Origin: Escherichia coli
GTDB taxonomy: Bacteria > Pseudomonadota > Gammaproteobacteria > Enterobacterales > Enterobacteriaceae
Length of the DNA stretch: 64,000 bases
NCBI RefSeq assembly: GCF_024223415.1
Contig: NZ_CP100500.1
Strand: one strand, 5' to 3'
Part shown: piece by piece, positions 35,541-60,442 of the stretch
How the letters are laid out: the number at the start of each line of letters is the position of its first letter
Numbering within the stretch: the first letter of the stretch is position 1
The notes under the pieces: model-generated
The model's input: only the letters and a program-made list of their open reading frames with translations
Database searches by the model: none
Told to the model about the DNA's origin: nothing
Program-made: the position numbers and the translations under genes

Positions 35541-35716
35541 AAATCAGGGTTTATGCTGATTTTTATACTTTAACTTGTTGATATTTAAAGTTATTTAATT
35601 GTAATGACGATACTCTGGAAAGTATTGAAAGTTAATTTGTGAGTGGTCGCACATATCCTGTTCATTTCATTTTGATACACTTCATGCCGTCAATGAGGTA
35701 ATTAACGTAGGTCGTT
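35541..35716 (+). promoter_or_regulatory. tdcABCDEFG promoter region
   Basis: AT-rich divergent intergenic upstream of tdcA; expected CRP/IHF-dependent promoter (sites not mapped). Confidence 0.5.
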
Positions 35717-40363: not shown

Positions 40364-42658
40364 ATGAAGGTAGATATTGATACCAGCGATAAGCTGTACG
40401 CCGACGCATGGCTTGGCTTTAAAGGTACGGACTGGAAAAGCGAAATTAATGTCCGCGATTTTATTCAACATAACTATACACCGTATGAAGGCGATGAATC
40501 TTTTCTCGCCGAAGCGACGCCTGCCACCACGGAATTGTGGGAAAAAGTAATGGAAGGCATCCGTATCGAAAACGCAACCCACGCGCCGGTTGATTTCGAT
40601 ACCAATATTGCCACCACAATTACCGCTCATGATGCGGGATATATTAACCAGCCGCTGGAAAAAATTGTTGGCCTGCAAACGGATGCGCCGTTGAAACGTG
40701 CGCTACACCCGTTCGGTGGCATTAATATGATTAAAAGTTCATTCCACGCCTATGGCCGTGAAATGGACAGTGAATTTGAATATCTGTTTACCGATCTGCG
40801 TAAAACCCATAACCAGGGTGTATTTGATGTTTACTCACCGGATATGCTGCGCTGCCGTAAATCTGGCGTACTGACCGGTTTACCAGATGGTTATGGACGT
40901 GGGCGCATTATAGGTGACTATCGCCGCGTAGCGCTGTATGGCATTCGTTATCTGGTGCGTGAACGCGAACTGCAATTTGCCGATCTCCAGTCTCGTCTGG
41001 AAAAAGGCGAGGATCTGGAAGCCACCATCCGTCTGCGTGAGGAGCTGGCAGAGCATCGTCATGCGCTGTTGCAGATTCAGGAAATGGCGGCGAAATATGG
41101 CTTTGATATCTCTCGCCCGGCGCAGAATGCGCAGGAAGCGGTGCAGTGGCTCTACTTCGCTTATCTGGCGGCAGTGAAATCACAGAACGGCGGCGCGATG
41201 TCGCTGGGTCGCACGGCATCGTTCCTGGATATCTACATTGAGCGCGACTTTAAAGCTGGCGTACTCAATGAGCAGCAGGCACAGGAACTGATCGATCACT
41301 TCATCATGAAGATCCGTATGGTGCGCTTCCTGCGTACACCGGAATTTGATTCGCTGTTCTCCGGCGACCCAATCTGGGCGACGGAAGTGATCGGCGGGAT
41401 GGGGCTGGACGGTCGTACGCTGGTGACCAAAAACTCCTTCCGCTATTTGCACACCCTGCACACTATGGGGCCTGCACCGGAACCTAACCTGACCATTCTT
41501 TGGTCGGAAGAATTACCGATTGCCTTCAAAAAATATGCCGCGCAGGTGTCGATCGTCACCTCTTCCTTGCAGTATGAAAACGACGATCTGATGCGTACTG
41601 ACTTCAACAGCGACGATTACGCGATTGCCTGCTGCGTCAGCCCAATGGTGATTGGTAAGCAAATGCAGTTCTTTGGTGCACGCGCTAACCTGGCGAAAAC
41701 GCTGCTGTACGCAATTAATGGCGGGGTGGACGAGAAGCTGAAGATTCAGGTCGGGCCGAAAACAGCACCGTTGATGGACGATGTGCTGGATTACGACAAA
41801 GTGATGGACAGCCTCGATCACTTCATGGACTGGCTGGCGGTGCAGTACATCAGCGCGCTGAATATCATTCACTACATGCACGACAAGTACAGCTACGAAG
41901 CTTCGCTGATGGCGCTGCACGATCGTGATGTCTATCGCACCATGGCGTGCGGCATCGCGGGCCTGTCGGTGGCAACGGACTCCCTTTCTGCGATCAAATA
42001 TGCCCGCGTGAAACCAATCCGTGACGAAAACGGCCTGGCGGTGGACTTTGAAATCGACGGTGAATATCCGCAGTACGGCAACAACGACGAGCGCGTAGAC
42101 AGCATTGCCTGCGACCTGGTTGAACGTTTTATGAAGAAAATTAAAGCGCTGCCAACCTATCGCAACGCCGTCCCTACCCAGTCGATTCTGACTATCACTT
42201 CTAACGTGGTGTACGGCCAGAAAACCGGTAACACGCCGGACGGTCGTCGCGCCGGAACACCGTTCGCGCCGGGCGCTAACCCGATGCATGGTCGTGACCG
42301 CAAAGGTGCCGTGGCCTCATTGACGTCGGTGGCGAAACTGCCGTTCACCTACGCTAAAGACGGGATCTCGTACACCTTCTCGATTGTGCCTGCGGCGCTG
42401 GGCAAAGAAGATCCAGTACGTAAAACCAACCTTGTCGGCCTGCTGGATGGGTATTTCCACCACGAAGCGGATGTCGAAGGCGGTCAACACCTCAACGTCA
42501 ACGTAATGAATCGGGAAATGCTGCTGGATGCCATCGAGCACCCGGAAAAATATCCTAACCTGACAATCCGTGTCTCTGGCTACGCCGTGCGCTTCAACGC
42601 ACTGACCCGTGAACAGCAGCAGGATGTTATTTCACGTACCTTTACCCAGGCGCTCTGA
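40364..42658 (+). CDS. tdcE: 2-ketobutyrate/pyruvate formate-lyase (glycyl radical enzyme)
   Basis: 764-aa ORF with C-terminal RVSGYAVRF glycyl-radical motif. Confidence 0.92.
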
Positions 42659-51885: not shown

Positions 51886-52278
51886 TTACCACTTTTTATT
51901 CAGCAGGCGGTCGATGCTATACGCGCCCGGACCGCTAATTGCCAGCAGCAGGAATCCGCCAGAAATTGTCAGGTTTTTCATGAACATCAGCGAGTTGACG
52001 CCTTCAGCAAAGTTGCTGTGAAATAAAAATGCCGTCAGCAGCGTAAAGCCCGCAGTAAACAGGGCTGTGGTGCGAGTCAGGAAACCGAACAGGATTGCCA
52101 GACCACCACCAAACTCAAGCAGAATCACCAGCGGCAGCATAAAACCCGGGACGCCCATCGCTTCCATATATTGTTGGGTACCCGCGTAACCAGTAATTTT
52201 TCCCCAGCCTGCGGTAATAAACAGAATCGGCATTAAAATGCGCGCTACCAGTACACCAACATCTTCTAATTTTTTCAT
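51886..52278 (-). CDS. yqjF: DoxX-family inner-membrane protein
   Basis: ORF 51886..52368; start MKKLEDVGVLVARIL gives 130 aa. Confidence 0.85.
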   Translation of the reverse strand: MKKLEDVGVLVARILMPILFITAGWGKITGYAGTQQYMEAMGVPGFMLPLVILLEFGGGLAILFGFLTRTTALFTAGFTLLTAFLFHSNFAEGVNSLMFMKNLTISGGFLLLAISGPGAYSIDRLLNKKW

Positions 52279-53159: not shown

Positions 53160-53465
53160 TTAACGACGCGACAGCAGAACGCCGAGCACTACACCGATTG
53201 CAGCGCCAATGCCCACGCCCGTCCATGGATTTTCACGCACATACTCATCGGCACGCGCCGCCGCGACACGGGTTTGTTTGGCGATGGCATCACCGGTTTC
53301 ACCCAGGCGATAACGGCTCTGTTTCAGTGCCTGCTCCGCTTTGCTACGAATCTTACTCAACTCTTCTTTCGACTTCTCGCCAGATGAGCTAAGCACCTCT
53401 TCCAGCGTATCGGAAAGGGATTTCAACTCAGCACGCAGATGTTCCGTAGTGTGTTCTTTCGACAT
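53160..53465 (-). CDS. yqjD: Ribosome-associated membrane protein (ElaB/YqjD family)
   Basis: 101-aa ORF with C-terminal TM anchor. Confidence 0.88.
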   Translation of the reverse strand: MSKEHTTEHLRAELKSLSDTLEEVLSSSGEKSKEELSKIRSKAEQALKQSRYRLGETGDAIAKQTRVAAARADEYVRENPWTGVGIGAAIGVVLGVLLSRR

Positions 53466-53502
53466 AGTTTTCTCCAGGTGAGTAAGTAGTGACTATTGTG
53501 AG

Positions 53503-53871
53503 TTAGTAGTCGCGCGCTTCCAGCTTTTTCAGCTCTTCCTGCGCTTCTGCCAGTTTCCGTTCGCGTTTGGCAATCTTATCGGCATCGCCTTTTTGCTTCG
53601 CCTCGGCTAAATCTTGCTGGCGTTCCGCCACCTCATCTTTCTGCTTTGCGATTTTCTTCTGATGATCGGCACGCAGCTGGCTATCTGAACAGTTGGCCCG
53701 GACTTCACTCAGGGCTTTATTCAGACCGTCAATACGATTCTGGTTTTGGTGTTTTTCGGCATAGCTGATCTCCTTAAGGATATTTTGCTCCTTTTCCTGA
53801 CACAGGGTAGTGGCATAACTACCGGCACTAAGAGCAAAAAGAGAAACAGCTAAAGCGATGCGGTATTTCAT
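53503..53871 (-). CDS. yqjC: DUF1090 periplasmic protein
   Basis: ORF 53503..53886; start MKYRIALAVSLFALSAGSYA gives 122 aa. Confidence 0.85.
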   Translation of the reverse strand: MKYRIALAVSLFALSAGSYATTLCQEKEQNILKEISYAEKHQNQNRIDGLNKALSEVRANCSDSQLRADHQKKIAKQKDEVAERQQDLAEAKQKGDADKIAKRERKLAEAQEELKKLEARDY

Positions 53872-54017
53872 TCTTGAACCTTCCATTGTGATTCGGACCT
53901 ATTACAAAGGAACGATTGTCCAGACAACGAAGCGGTAGTGTTAACCACCGCCTCATTAATCATAGACAGTTACGGTGAAATCACCAAAGTGAGTGATCTG
54001 TTTCGGATAACAGGAAG

Positions 54018-54401
54018 TTATCCGAAGCGATGTGAGTTATCCCGTAGCCGGGTCAGCCACTGCATAGCCTGACTGTTATTGTCCTGCTGCGCAATGATGT
54101 AGCCTTGGGGCAATGTTCTGTCGAGGACCGCTTTTGCAGCGGCGCTCTGGTCGCTGGAGTCAAAGGTAATTAACAGAGTGTCGTTTTTGGGGGTGATACT
54201 TTTGAAAGGAATGCCATGAGCGTCAAGGTGATGCCAGATTGAAAAACCGTCTGGCATCGTTGTGCCTTGATGAACGGCACGAATCGCCAGCGTAGACTCT
54301 TGCTGGCGAACCGCGGACCAGGCCAGCAACAGCGTGCCGACCAGAAGTAAAACAGCGCCGGACCAGGCTAGCTGGCGAAGCGACATGCGAGGTATTTGCA
54401 T
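54018..54401 (-). CDS. mzrA: Modulator of EnvZ/OmpR regulon
   Basis: 127-aa [31 protein letters not shown]…. Confidence 0.88.
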
Positions 54402-54404
54402 CCC

Positions 54405-55067
54405 TTACCCCCGATTTCCATATTTCTTTTTCCATAACACGACCAGAGAACCTGCCAGGCCAAACACCAGCAGCACCACCGGGAGCAGCATCAGGCATGA
54501 CATCAGCTGGTCCTCGTACTTTAAAAATACCGGCGTTTTGCCGAGCATGTAACCCAGAGTTGTCAGGATCAATACCCACAGCAGACCGCTCATCCAGTTG
54601 AAAAACTGAAAGCGCGCGTTATTCAGCCCTGATAACCCGGCAATCGTCGGCAGCAGTGTTCTGACAAACGCAATAAAGCGACCAATTAACAGCGCCGATA
54701 AACCGTGTTTATGAAAAAGATGGTGTGCGCGTTGATGATAATGTGCGGGTAAATGAGATAGCCAGTTTTGTACGGTGCGGGTATTGCCCAGCCATCGCCC
54801 CTGAATATAGCTGACCCAGCAGCCGAGGCTGGCGGCAACGGTCAGCAGCAGAATCGTTTGCGGATAGCCCATCGCGCCTTTCGCAATCAACACGCCGACC
54901 AATACCAGTAAACTGTCGCCCGGTAAAAAGGCCGCCGGAAGCAAGCCGTTTTCAAGGAACAAAATTACAAACAAGACAAAATACAACATGCCAATCATCG
55001 ATGGATTGGCCAAGGTTTCAAAATCCTGCGCCCACAGGGCTTGCAGCAATTGGGTCAAAAGTTCCAT
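54405..55067 (-). CDS. yqjA: DedA-family inner-membrane protein
   Basis: 220-aa membrane ORF. Confidence 0.88.
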
Positions 55068-55411
55068 TCATTATTCCTGGTGAATCGGTTAACGCCACGC
55101 TGGTTTTAAAAGATGCACTACCGCAATGTTATTGCTGTTTTGGTATGTTCTGCGGGTTTGATACATCAACACAGCCTGAACTATTCCCTGTTAAATCGTG
55201 AGATAAGAAAGCATTCAAAAACATAAATTCAAATTGAATCTAATTGTAACAAAGGTCAACGTTGTTCGTTATCAAAATTACATGTCCGTGGAGTCTGATT
55301 TTGCTGAATGCAGGGGAGGGTGGCGAGAGGATTTACACAGGCTGACACTTTATACTTTTCGCTTACCGACGAGACAAACAGGCGCATTGCAGCGCCTGTC
55401 GGACAGGAATT

Positions 55412-56188
55412 TCATTTACTGCCGCTGGTGGCTGTATCGAGATGCACCACCGGGTTTTCGGCGAACAGATAACGGTCGGCATTGAACTCGAAGTCGTCGC
55501 TGGTTTCGTTAAATAACATGATCTTGGTGTTTTCCAGGTGCTGCCACATTGCCAGCTTAGCAGCATGAGGATCTTTGCGAATCAGCGCTTTGAGGATTTG
55601 ATCGTGGTCATCACACCAGTTATCGACGGTACGGGAATCAATGTGTTCGTGCAGTTTTTTCCAGTACGGGTTATGGCTACGCTGGGTCCACATTTTTTCA
55701 ACGATAGCCGCCAGGGCGGAGTTCTGCGTCGCCAGGGCTACCTGAATATGGAACTGCAAATCCCACTCGGAATCACGGAAGCATTGTTCACCGCGTGCCT
55801 GCTCCTGGATGGCCATCAATTTCATGATGTCCTGTTTCGTTACCTGAGTTGCCGCGAACTCGGCAATATTACTTTCGATGAGCTGGCGAGCCTGGAGTAA
55901 CTCAAACGGACCGTAATTGGCGAATTCCATGTTATTGTCCGCCGTCTGCTGATGGCGCGGCTGGTTGGAAACCACGTGAATACCTGAACCTTTACGCACT
56001 TCGACATAGCCTTCAACTTCCAGCATGATGATGGCTTCACGAACTACCGTACGGCTGACGTTCTTTTCATCGGCAATAAAGCGCTCAGCAGGCAGTTTAT
56101 CACCCACCAGATAGACGCCCTGTTCGATGCGCTCTTTCAGGTCAGCGGCAAGTTGTTGATACAAACGGCGTGGTTCAGTGATTTCCAT
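55412..56188 (-). CDS. exuR: Hexuronate regulon repressor (GntR/FadR family)
   Basis: ORF 55412..56203; start [24 protein letters not shown] gives 258 aa. Confidence 0.9.
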
Positions 56189-56263
56189 ATGCGCTCCAGG
56201 CATGATACGGCAGACTATATTTGTTATACCACTTTTGCGAGTTTAGCTCTACTCGCAGTGATG

Positions 56264-56290
56264 AAAAAGCCGCCTGAGAAGGCGGCTTTG
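56264..56290 (-). terminator. exuT intrinsic terminator
   Basis: On minus strand: GCCGCC-TTCTCA-GGCGGC hairpin followed by TTTTT. Confidence 0.75.
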
Positions 56291-56317
56291 AAGGGAAACT
56301 AAAACTTACACGAAGCG

Positions 56318-57046
56318 TTAATGTTGCGGTGCGGGATCGTTATGTGTTTCCTGCGCCACCTCAATCGCCGGTTTGTTCTGCAATACGGTCCAGATAACCA
56401 GCGCCCCCAGCAGGTCAAATACTGCCAGAACTGCGAACAGCGGGCTGAAGCCGATGGTGTCAGCCAGTGCACCGACAACCAGTGCAAACAGCGTACTTGC
56501 CAGCCATGCCATCGCCCAGATAAAGCTCAATGCACCGGAGATGATAAATGCCATCTGCCAGCTGTGCATCACGATTGCCCATACCACCAGCGGCGGCGCA
56601 ATCATCGCACCAATCGAAGAACCTACGTTAAAGTAGCCTACTGCGATGGAACGCTCTTTCGCCGGGAACCATTCGGAGCTGGCTTTCAGACCCGCCGGGA
56701 TCATCGCTGCTTCCGCGGCACCGACCGCACCACGAGCAACAGCCAGGCCACCCCAGCTACCTGCCAGCGCGGTTGCACCACAGAACACGGCCCACAGCAC
56801 AGCAAACATTGCATAACCGATTTTCGTACCCAGCACATCCAGTACATAACCCGCTACCGGTTGCATGACCGTATAAGCAGCAGAATAGGCTGCGATGATA
56901 TAGGAATACTGTTGGGTGGAGATGTTTAACTCTTCCATCAGAGTTGGCGCAGCTGCCGCCACAGTGTTACGCGTCAGGTAACCAAGCACGGTGCCGAGCG
57001 TCACCAGTGCGATCATATACCAACGTAACCCTTTAATTTTACGCAT
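56318..57046 (-). pseudogene. exuT: Hexuronate MFS transporter with apparent ~570-bp in-frame internal deletion (242 aa instead of ~432)
   Basis: N-terminal ~182 aa and C-terminal ~60 aa match ExuT; too short for a 12-TM MFS permease; frame continuous across junction near 56498-56503. Confidence 0.7.
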
Positions 57047-58940
<1,894 letters not shown>

Positions 58941-58954
58941 GGTCTGGGGTTGAT

Positions 58955-60442
58955 ATGCAATACATCAAGATCCATGCGCTGGATAACGTCGCGGTCGCTT
59001 TAGCAGATTTGGCGGAAGGCACAGAAGTCAGTGTCGATAACCAAACTGTTAGGCTGCGCCAGGATGTTGCTCGTGGACATAAATTTGCGTTAACGAATAT
59101 CGCAAAAGGGGCCAACGTCATCAAATATGGCCTGCCGATTGGTTATGCATTGGCGGATATTGCGGCGGGGGAACACGTTCACGCCCACAATACGCGCACG
59201 AATCTGAGCGATCTGGATCAGTATCGCTATCAACCTGATTTTCAGGATCTGCCTGCGCAAGCGGCAGATCGTGAAGTGCAGATCTATCGTCGCGCTAACG
59301 GCGATGTCGGGGTGCGTAACGAGCTGTGGATCCTGCCAACCGTGGGCTGTGTCAACGGCATCGCTCGGCAGATCCAGAACCGTTTTCTGAAAGAGACCAA
59401 CAACGCTGAAGGTACCGACGGCGTGTTCCTCTTCAGCCACACCTACGGCTGCTCACAGCTGGGCGACGATCACATTAATACCCGCACCATGCTGCAAAAC
59501 ATGGTGCGCCACCCGAACGCAGGCGCAGTGCTGGTGATTGGCCTGGGCTGTGAAAACAACCAGGTTGCCGCATTCCGTGAAACGCTGGGCGATATCGATC
59601 CTGAACGCGTTCATTTCATGATCTGCCAACAGCAGGATGATGAGATCGAGGCCGGGATCGAGCATTTGCATCAGTTGTATAACGTGATGCGCAACGATAA
59701 ACGCGAGCCAGGCAAACTCAGCGAACTGAAGTTTGGTCTGGAGTGCGGTGGTTCTGACGGTCTTTCTGGTATTACTGCTAACCCGATGCTGGGGCGTTTC
59801 TCTGACTACGTGATTGCTAACGGCGGTACTACCGTACTGACCGAAGTGCCGGAGATGTTTGGCGCAGAGCAGTTGCTGATGGACCATTGCCGCGACGAAG
59901 CAACGTTTGAAAAACTGGTCACTATGGTCAACGACTTCAAACAGTACTTTATTGCCCATGACCAGCCGATCTATGAAAACCCATCGCCGGGGAACAAAGC
60001 GGGCGGTATCACCACGCTGGAAGACAAATCACTTGGCTGTACCCAGAAAGCGGGTTCCAGCGTCGTGGTTGACGTGCTGCGTTACGGCGAGCGTCTGAAA
60101 ACGCCGGGGCTGAACTTGTTAAGTGCGCCAGGTAACGATGCCGTAGCGACCAGCGCCCTGGCGGGTGCGGGCTGCCATATGGTGCTGTTCAGTACTGGTC
60201 GTGGCACGCCGTATGGTGGATTTGTGCCGACGGTGAAAATCGCCACCAACAGTGAACTGGCGGCGAAGAAAAAACACTGGATCGACTTTGACGCGGGTCA
60301 GCTGATCCACGGTAAAGCGATGCCGCAGTTGCTGGAAGAATTTATCGACACCATCGTTGAGTTTGCCAACGGTAAGCAAACCTGTAACGAGCGTAACGAC
60401 TTCCGCGAACTGGCGATCTTCAAAAGCGGCGTAACGCTATAA
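58955..60442 (+). CDS. uxaA: Altronate dehydratase
   Basis: 495-aa ORF MQYIKIHALDNVAVALADL…. Confidence 0.92.
   Translation: MQYIKIHALDNVAVALADLAEGTEVSVDNQTVRLRQDVARGHKFALTNIAKGANVIKYGLPIGYALADIAAGEHVHAHNTRTNLSDLDQYRYQPDFQDLPAQAADREVQIYRRANGDVGVRNELWILPTVGCVNGIARQIQNRFLKETNNAEGTDGVFLFSHTYGCSQLGDDHINTRTMLQNMVRHPNAGAVLVIGLGCENNQVAAFRETLGDIDPERVHFMICQQQDDEIEAGIEHLHQLYNVMRNDKREPGKLSELKFGLECGGSDGLSGITANPMLGRFSDYVIANGGTTVLTEVPEMFGAEQLLMDHCRDEATFEKLVTMVNDFKQYFIAHDQPIYENPSPGNKAGGITTLEDKSLGCTQKAGSSVVVDVLRYGERLKTPGLNLLSAPGNDAVATSALAGAGCHMVLFSTGRGTPYGGFVPTVKIATNSELAAKKKHWIDFDAGQLIHGKAMPQLLEEFIDTIVEFANGKQTCNERNDFRELAIFKSGVTL

What the first reader, a model, noticed from the sequence alone, without database searches (positions are those of the whole stretch)
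56318..57046. exuT appears to carry an in-frame internal deletion of about 570 bp
The only minus-strand ORF between exuR and uxaC encodes 242 aa from the MRKIKGL start. Its first ~182 aa look like TM1-TM6 of ExuT and its last ~60 aa look like the ExuT C-terminus, but a 12-TM MFS permease needs about 430 aa (K-12 ExuT is about 432 aa as I recall). The frame is continuous across the junction (…FIWAMAWL|ASTLFALVV…, nt ~56498-56503), so the central loop and roughly TM7-TM11 appear to be cleanly missing. The flanking genes exuR, uxaC and uxaA are intact. As I recall the reference protein, an AWL tripeptide occurs at both deletion ends, which would fit a short-direct-repeat-mediated deletion; that detail is from memory and unverified. 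Predicted consequence is loss of ExuT-dependent glucuronate/galacturonate uptake.
Basis: partly seen in the sequence, partly recalled or inferred. Interest (0 to 1): 0.6.

Follow-up and report, generated by a model that had tools for sequence, protein, structure and literature searches.

The report
In-frame 570-bp deletion inside exuT
This E. coli strain has lost the middle 190 codons of its hexuronate transporter gene exuT through a deletion between two 9-base repeats, which almost certainly stops uptake of glucuronate and galacturonate; it is a real but ordinary strain-specific loss-of-function allele.

Summary
The window's exuT (56318..57046, minus strand) encodes 242 aa, against 432 aa in K-12 and in the closest relatives. 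Exactly 570 bp (190 codons) are missing. In the intact gene the lost segment is bounded by a 9-bp direct repeat, GCATGGCTG (Ala-Trp-Leu at residues 180-182 and 370-372). One copy remains at window 56501..56509, with no scar or filler. This is the classic signature of a deletion between short direct repeats.

The allele is not an assembly error. The same 242-aa protein is recorded in two GenBank entries and one RefSeq WP entry. An independent Logan read assembly is 100% identical to the window over 6.7 kb, including the junction.

The allele is private. None of 5,426 complete E. coli genomes carries the junction, and near-identical relatives have the intact gene.

The product keeps TM1-6 but lacks the central loop, TM7-TM10 and the first half of TM11. 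That includes the C-domain positions that bind substrate in the homologue DgoT. A K-12 exuT knockout cannot grow on galacturonate or glucuronate, so loss of hexuronate uptake is the expected, untested, consequence. exuR, uxaC and uxaA are intact. Interest is low.

The parts
56318..57046 (-). exuT with the 570-bp deletion: a 242-aa in-frame remnant of the 432-aa hexuronate:H+ symporter ExuT
   Evidence: ORF and sequence; alignment to intact exuT; exact protein on record as WP_112037821.1, SRA04904.1 and UTJ27172.1
56501..56509 (-). Deletion junction: the single retained copy of the 9-bp direct repeat GCATGGCTG (Ala-Trp-Leu). The intact gene has two copies 570 bp apart, at gene nt 538-546 and 1108-1116
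   Evidence: Left and right flank identity overlap exactly on this 9-mer. Both copies are present at the same positions in K-12 and SCU-316
56501..57046 (-). Retained 5' part: codons 1-182, the N-terminal six-helix domain (TM1-TM6). It includes the equivalents of DgoT Y44, R47 and E133 (ExuT Y23, R26, E112)
   Evidence: Pfam MFS_1 matches residues 16-182 to model positions 2-172 of 347 and stops at the junction; DgoT alignment; hydropathy
56318..56500 (-). Retained 3' part: codons 373-432 plus the stop codon, i.e. the second half of TM11, TM12 and the cytoplasmic tail
   Evidence: Identical to the C-terminus of the intact protein; DgoT alignment places the second AWL inside TM11
56264..56286 (-). 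GC-rich hairpin GCCGCC-TTCTCA-GGCGGC followed by TTTTT, downstream of the exuT stop. It looks like an intact intrinsic terminator, so no polar effect on exuR is expected
   Evidence: Read directly from the sequence. The consensus scan did not list it, so this is an inference
57135..57141 (-). Second private change at the locus: a run of 7 T (gene strand) where K-12, SCU-316 and NCTC9112 have 8, about 90-96 nt upstream of the exuT ATG. Its consequence is unknown
   Evidence: The Logan assembly also has T7. A T7-specific probe hits none of 5,426 genomes
55412..56188 (-). exuR (hexuronate regulon repressor), intact
   Evidence: DNA identical to NCTC9112 exuR, WP_000406498.1
57528..58940 (+). uxaC (glucuronate/galacturonate isomerase), intact
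   Evidence: DNA identical to NCTC9112 uxaC, WP_000187442.1
58955..60442 (+). uxaA (altronate dehydratase), intact
   Evidence: DNA identical to NCTC9112 uxaA, WP_001199352.1

Best explanation
This is a genuine, spontaneous, strain-private 570-bp deletion inside exuT. It arose by misalignment (replication slippage or another RecA-independent illegitimate recombination) between two 9-bp direct repeats, GCATGGCTG, that lie 570 bp apart in the ancestral gene. Both repeats encode Ala-Trp-Leu in the same frame, so the deletion is necessarily in frame and leaves one repeat copy. The product keeps the N-terminal six-helix domain fused to the last helix and a half. It lacks the central loop, TM7-TM10 and half of TM11. 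It therefore cannot form the two-domain MFS cavity, and the allele is a null for hexuronate uptake. Shown: the deletion, its endpoints, the repeat, its absence from other genomes, and its reproducibility in other records. Inferred: the slippage mechanism, the loss of transport, and the growth phenotype.
For: Exactly 570 bp are missing relative to SCU-316, with no other difference in 1.7 kb except a 1-bp run change. A 9-bp repeat sits at both ends in the intact gene and one copy sits at the junction, with no scar or inserted bases. The same repeat pair is present in K-12. Relatives that differ from the window by only a few SNPs per 24 kb have the intact gene. The junction is absent from 5,426 complete E. 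coli genomes, while a control probe of the same length hits 1,892 genomes. It is also absent from JGI metagenome contigs. The exact 242-aa protein is in two GenBank records, one WP record and Logan assemblies, on four contigs in all. Logan contig SRR19977205_148 is 100% identical to window 53318..60046. Pfam MFS_1 covers only model positions 2-172 of 347. Hydropathy gives 7 hydrophobic segments instead of 12, with a 31-residue uncharged TM6/TM11 fusion. The DgoT alignment shows that the positions aligned with substrate-binding Q264 (TM7), S370 and W373 (TM10) and N393 (TM11) are deleted. A K-12 exuT knockout loses growth on D-galacturonate and D-glucuronate, with ExuT assigned as the sole transporter (bioRxiv 10.64898/2026.05.20.726482).
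Against: No raw reads could be inspected, so a mixed population cannot be excluded. It is also unknown whether the four contigs come from independent isolates or from one culture-collection strain sequenced repeatedly. Transport and growth were not tested. The 9-bp repeat is unremarkable: it is one of 12 direct repeats of at least 9 nt in exuT, against 6.7 +/- 2.6 in codon-shuffled controls. It therefore explains where the breakpoints lie, not why this event occurred or persisted.
Confidence: 0.9

Rival explanations
1. Assembly or sequencing artefact: the 570 bp are present in the genome but were collapsed during assembly.
For: None was found. The only formal gap is that raw reads were not examined.
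Against: A 9-bp repeat is far shorter than any assembler k-mer or read, so collapse there is not an expected failure mode. The identical protein comes from four contigs in different sources, and a Logan contig assembled directly from an SRA run is 100% identical over 6.7 kb, including the junction and the T7 run. The window is otherwise of high quality: where it differs from SCU-316 in homopolymers and CCTGG sites, the window has the intact yhaB, yhaC and tdcR ORFs and SCU-316 has annotated frameshifts.
Confidence: 0.03
2. Engineered knockout: the strain is a laboratory construct with a deliberate exuT deletion.
For: The deletion is clean and in frame, as designed deletions often are.
Against: There is no FRT, loxP or cassette scar, and no start-to-stop design. 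The breakpoints lie at a natural 9-bp microhomology in mid-gene. Designed deletions do not keep 182 N-terminal and 60 C-terminal codons. The background is close to wild O78-type, NCTC and animal isolates.
Confidence: 0.02
3. Selected loss or altered function: the deletion was favoured by selection (for example avoiding the cost of the transporter or the uptake of a harmful substrate), or the 7-helix remnant keeps some activity.
For: A second private mutation (T8 to T7) lies about 90 nt upstream of the same gene. The frame is preserved and the promoter region is otherwise unchanged. Hexuronate catabolism is dispensable for mouse-gut colonisation in MG1655, HS and Nissle 1917 (PMC3547972), so loss costs little.
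Against: Only one lineage carries the allele, so there is no recurrence to indicate selection. exuT is retained at 80% coverage or more in 5,397 of 5,426 genomes, which argues for purifying selection in general. Given three other private changes in 24 kb, the chance that one falls in this 1.8-kb locus is about 0.2 (my calculation). Frame preservation is forced by the in-phase repeats. The C-domain half of the substrate site is gone.
Confidence: 0.05

Closest known systems
[quoted passage not shown]
   Same: It is the same gene at the same locus (exuR-exuT / uxaCA). Residues 1-182 and 373-432 are identical to the allele of the closest relatives.
   Different: It lacks residues 183-372 (equivalently 180-369): the central loop, TM7-TM10 and the first half of TM11. 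It has 242 aa instead of 432.
Keio collection exuT knockout of E. coli BW25113
   Same: The expected phenotype is the same: no growth on D-galacturonate or D-glucuronate (bioRxiv 10.64898/2026.05.20.726482).
   Different: The Keio allele is an engineered start-to-stop replacement. This one is a natural internal in-frame deletion that can still express a 7-helix remnant. Its phenotype has not been tested.
Spontaneous deletions between short direct repeats, as first catalogued in E. coli lacI (Farabaugh et al. 1978; Albertini et al. 1982; cited from my own knowledge, not read here)
   Same: There is a short perfect direct repeat at both ends of the lost segment, one copy is retained, and the deletion spans hundreds of base pairs.
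   Different: Nothing differs in kind. This is simply another locus, found in a natural isolate.
DgoT (PDB 6E9N/6E9O), D-galactonate:H+ symporter, the closest solved homologue
   Same: It has the same family and fold (E = 1.8e-37 over ExuT residues 8-407). The N-domain residues Y44, R47 and E133 have equivalents in the remnant.
   Different: The positions aligned with DgoT's C-domain substrate contacts (Q264, S370, W373, N393; PMC6532931) lie in the segment that is deleted here.
Split lactose permease experiments (N6 and C6 halves of LacY; Bibi and Kaback 1990; from my own knowledge)
   Same: They show that an MFS N-terminal half on its own does not transport.
   Different: In those experiments the halves were co-expressed and complemented each other. 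Here no C-domain exists.

Membership tests
Functional ExuT / ACS-family MFS symporter | Orthologous locus: between exuR and the divergent uxaCA operon, with near-identical sequence | tested here: met
   the flanks and the retained coding sequence are identical to exuT of the closest relatives
Functional ExuT / ACS-family MFS symporter | Two six-helix domains (12 TM) forming the central cavity | tested here: not met
   Pfam MFS_1 matches only model positions 2-172 of 347. There are 7 hydrophobic segments against 12 in the intact protein. 190 residues are missing
Functional ExuT / ACS-family MFS symporter | N-domain carboxylate-binding Arg and proton-coupling Glu (DgoT R47, E133) | tested here: met
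   ExuT R26 and E112 align with them and are retained (residue roles from PMC6532931)
Functional ExuT / ACS-family MFS symporter | C-domain substrate contacts and gating helices (TM7, TM10, TM11) | tested here: not met
   The positions aligned with DgoT Q264, S370, W373 and N393 (ExuT about 236, 344, 347, 367) all lie within the deleted residues 183-372
Functional ExuT / ACS-family MFS symporter | Supports uptake of, and growth on, galacturonate and glucuronate | not testable with these tools
   This needs a growth or transport assay. The K-12 knockout phenotype is known
Deletion mediated by short direct repeats (slippage or illegitimate recombination) | A perfect direct repeat at both ends of the deleted segment in the ancestral sequence | tested here: met
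   GCATGGCTG at gene nt 538-546 and 1108-1116 in SCU-316 and K-12
Deletion mediated by short direct repeats (slippage or illegitimate recombination) | Exactly one repeat copy at the junction, with no filler, scar or mobile-element sequence | tested here: met
   Window 56501..56509; the flanks are identical on both sides up to the repeat
Deletion mediated by short direct repeats (slippage or illegitimate recombination) | Derived state: close relatives carry the undeleted sequence | tested here: met
   SCU-316, NCTC9112, NCTC10444, KV7 and O78 strain 3 all have intact exuT at about 99.98-100% flank identity. The junction is absent from 5,426 genomes
Deletion mediated by short direct repeats (slippage or illegitimate recombination) | RecA-independent replication misalignment as the actual molecular event | not testable with these tools
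   A historical event; inferred from the junction anatomy only
Assembly artefact | Not reproducible in independent assemblies or reads | tested here: not met
   The same protein is on four contigs from NCBI and Logan. The Logan contig is 100% identical over 6,729 bp. Raw reads were not inspected

The most novel reading that the evidence does not exclude
The deletion is not neutral decay. Either loss of ExuT was selected in this lineage, with the private T8-to-T7 change upstream as a second hit at the same locus, or the in-frame seven-helix remnant (N-domain plus TM11'/TM12) is stably made and has some residual or new membrane activity.
Probability: 0.05. Interest if true: 0.35.

Novelty: new member of a known kind. 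Interest (0 to 1): 0.12.

Why it matters
The biological importance is small. One E. coli lineage has probably lost the ability to take up free glucuronate and galacturonate, while keeping the catabolic enzymes. Those enzymes can still serve glucuronate released inside the cell from glucuronides; that point is an inference, because the uid genes lie outside the window.

The practical interest is for annotation. Because the deletion is in frame, public records name the 242-aa product 'hexuronate transporter' or 'MFS transporter' with no sign of a defect in the names. Gene-presence phenotype predictions and metabolic models would therefore wrongly score this strain as hexuronate-positive. The allele is also a clean natural example of a deletion between short repeats, and it could serve as a lineage marker.

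Tried and rejected
1. A junction-specific 45-nt megablast probe found no hit in 5,426 complete E. coli genomes. The design keeps each flank plus the repeat at 27 nt, below the 28-nt word size, so intact genes cannot seed a match. A control probe of equal length hit 1,892 genomes.
2. An exact 29-nt junction scan of the JGI metagenome contigs found nothing.
3. Rfam (E-value mode) and the promoter/terminator scan over 56000-57600 gave nothing meaningful. Folding the RNA around the T-run gave z = -1.4, so no function can be assigned to the T8-to-T7 change.
4. I tested whether the 9-bp repeat is unusual. It is not: there are 12 repeats of at least 9 nt in exuT, against 6.7 +/- 2.6 in codon-shuffled controls.
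5. Literature searches for exuT with 'deletion' or 'pseudogene' found no description of this allele or of recurrent natural exuT loss in E. coli. The PNAS 2024 glucuronic acid paper does not mention ExuT.
6. Loci fetched by accession (L003-L005) were not exported to the Python sandbox. I used hit-based loci and the alignment tool instead.
7. I did not run structure prediction or large homology searches. The Pfam half-match and the DgoT alignment already settle the architecture.
8. I could not name the source strain. The tools give protein accessions (SRA04904.1, UTJ27172.1) and the run SRR19977205, but no strain record.

Full report
**What is in the sequence.** On the minus strand between exuR and uxaC there is one substantial ORF. 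From the MRKIKGL start (57046) to the stop (56318) it encodes 242 aa. The mechanical ORF list extends it to an upstream in-frame GTG at 57148, giving 276 aa. Intact exuT is 1299 nt, or 432 aa, in K-12 MG1655 (b3093). It is the same length in the closest complete genomes: SCU-316, NCTC9112 and NCTC10444.

**Endpoints.** A megablast of window 55900-57600 found the region in 5,422 of 5,426 complete E. coli genomes. Every listed top hit was split into two pieces spanning 2,272 bp for 1,701 bp of query.

- A global alignment with SCU-316 resolves this excess into one 570-bp gap inside exuT and a 1-bp gap upstream, with no mismatches.
- Extending identity from each side shows that both flanks run into the same 9-mer at window 56501..56509. 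On the gene strand this is GCATGGCTG.
- In the intact gene the 9-mer occurs twice, at gene nt 538-546 and 1108-1116, exactly 570 bp apart. Both copies encode Ala-Trp-Leu in frame, at residues 180-182 and 370-372.
- K-12 has the same two copies.
- The window keeps one copy, with no extra bases and no scar.
The preserved reading frame follows automatically from the two repeats being in the same codon phase.

**Is the repeat special?** It is not. Intact exuT contains 12 direct repeats of at least 9 nt, and codon-shuffled versions contain 6.7 +/- 2.6. The repeat explains where the breakpoints lie, not why the event happened.

**Is it real?** The exact 242-aa sequence is on record in the 15-billion-protein collection under SRA04904.1, UTJ27172.1, WP_112037821.1 and a UniRef entry, and in Logan assemblies. 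It forms a cluster of one.

- The contig look-up finds it on four contigs: one longer than 1 Mb, one of 0.2-1 Mb, and two short Logan contigs.
- The Logan contig from run SRR19977205 is 100% identical to window 53318..60046. That stretch includes the junction and the upstream T-run.
- A 9-bp repeat is too short to cause assembly collapse.
- The window is accurate elsewhere too. It differs from SCU-316 in a cluster of homopolymer and CCTGG sites (window 33460-35600). There the window has intact yhaC (395 aa), yhaB and tdcR ORFs, whereas SCU-316 has annotated frameshifts.
- I could not inspect raw reads. I also cannot tell whether the four contigs are independent isolates or one strain sequenced several times.

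**How common is it?** I designed a 45-nt junction probe so that intact genes cannot seed a megablast word.

- The probe hits none of 5,426 complete E. coli genomes. A control probe of equal length from the neighbouring sequence hits 1,892 genomes.
- An exact 29-nt junction scan of the JGI metagenome contigs found nothing.
- Intact exuT is present at 80% coverage or more in 5,397 of 5,426 genomes. Gross lesions of this gene are therefore rare (about 0.5%) but not unique. Strain ES7, for example, retains only 16% of it.
- The closest relatives differ from the window by only a few SNPs per 24-25 kb and are collinear with it everywhere else that I compared. All of them have the intact gene.
- The deletion is therefore a recent, lineage-private event. 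Within the parts of the 64-kb window that I compared, it is the only structural difference from those relatives.

**Consequence for the protein.**

- Pfam MFS_1 matches residues 16-182 to model positions 2-172 of 347 and stops exactly at the junction.
- The closest solved homologue is the D-galactonate symporter DgoT (6E9N, E = 1.8e-37).
- In that alignment, ExuT Y23, R26 and E112 correspond to DgoT Y44, R47 and E133 and are retained.
- The positions aligned with DgoT Q264 (TM7), S370 and W373 (TM10) and N393 (TM11) fall at about ExuT 236, 344, 347 and 367, all inside the deleted residues 183-372. According to the structure paper, these DgoT residues bind the substrate hydroxyls and form the cytoplasmic gate (PMC6532931).
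- The first AWL lies at the cytoplasmic end of TM6 and the second lies inside TM11.
- The loss is therefore the central loop, TM7-TM10 and the first half of TM11.
- A hydropathy scan gives 12 hydrophobic segments in the intact protein and 7 in the remnant. TM6 is fused to the rest of TM11 as a 31-residue uncharged stretch.
- An odd helix count and a missing C-domain are incompatible with the MFS rocker-switch architecture.
- In K-12 an exuT knockout abolishes growth on D-galacturonate and D-glucuronate, and ExuT is assigned as the sole transporter for them (bioRxiv 10.64898/2026.05.20.726482).
- I therefore conclude that the allele is null for hexuronate uptake. This is an inference, not something shown for this strain.

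**Neighbourhood.** exuR, uxaC and uxaA are identical in DNA to the annotated intact genes of NCTC9112. A GC-rich hairpin with a T-run follows the exuT stop (the scan did not list it). The deletion is in frame, so no polar effect on exuR is expected. Keeping uxaCA makes sense if glucuronate can still arise inside the cell from glucuronides. That is an inference from the known pathway, because the uid and uxu genes lie outside the window.

**A second private change.** About 90 nt upstream of the exuT ATG, the window and the Logan assembly have a run of 7 T. K-12, SCU-316 and NCTC9112 have 8. A T7-specific probe hits none of 5,426 genomes. Rfam, the promoter/terminator scan and RNA folding give no function for this tract. 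Given about three other private changes in 24 kb, one falling in this 1.8-kb locus has a chance of roughly 0.2. It is therefore not evidence of selection.

**Comparison with what is known, and verdict.** The junction anatomy is the textbook signature of a deletion between short direct repeats: a perfect short direct repeat at both ends, one copy kept, and no filler. It is known since the lacI deletion spectra (from my own knowledge).

- The gene is an orthologue of ExuT by position and sequence. It fails the architectural tests for a functional MFS member.
- Hexuronate catabolism is dispensable for colonisation of the streptomycin-treated mouse gut by MG1655, HS and Nissle 1917. It contributes least among the sugars used by EDL933 (PMC3547972). 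Occasional neutral loss is therefore plausible.
- No paper found describes this allele.
The finding is real but ordinary: a new instance of a well-known kind of mutation.
- Its main practical point is that the names public records give the in-frame remnant do not reveal that it is defective.

Noticed in passing
window 57135..57141: A run of 7 T (gene strand), about 90 nt upstream of the exuT start, where K-12, SCU-316 and NCTC9112 have 8. It is also T7 in the independent Logan assembly. A T7-specific probe hits none of 5,426 complete genomes. No regulatory element could be assigned to it.
   Followed up: partly
window 33460..35600 (yhaC, yhaB, tdcR): There is a dense cluster of homopolymer-length and CCTGG-site differences between the window and its near-identical relative SCU-316. 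The window has intact ORFs (yhaC 395 aa). SCU-316 annotates all three genes as frameshifted, so these look like long-read errors (Dcm sites, homopolymers) in SCU-316 rather than biology.
   Followed up: partly
window 56318..57046 and public records: The 242-aa remnant is on record as WP_112037821.1, SRA04904.1 and UTJ27172.1, named 'hexuronate transporter' or 'MFS transporter'. The in-frame deletion is not reflected in the names given, so gene-presence phenotype predictions would be misled.
   Followed up: partly
E. coli genome collection, e.g. NZ_CM184333.1 strain ES7: 29 of 5,426 complete genomes lack a match covering at least 80% of exuT. ES7 keeps only the first 208 nt, annotated as 'MFS transporter'. 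Independent gross lesions of exuT therefore exist, at about 0.5%.
   Followed up: no
window 40819 and 51935: Two further single-base differences set the window apart from both SCU-316 and NCTC9112 (T instead of C at 40819, C instead of G at 51935). Together with the exuT deletion and the T7 run, they are the only differences from both relatives in the last 24 kb.
   Followed up: no
window 56318..57148: The mechanical ORF extends 34 codons upstream to a GTG at 57148. The annotated start in all relatives is the ATG at 57046, so the 276-aa version is a product of the ORF listing and not a new N-terminus.
   Followed up: yes
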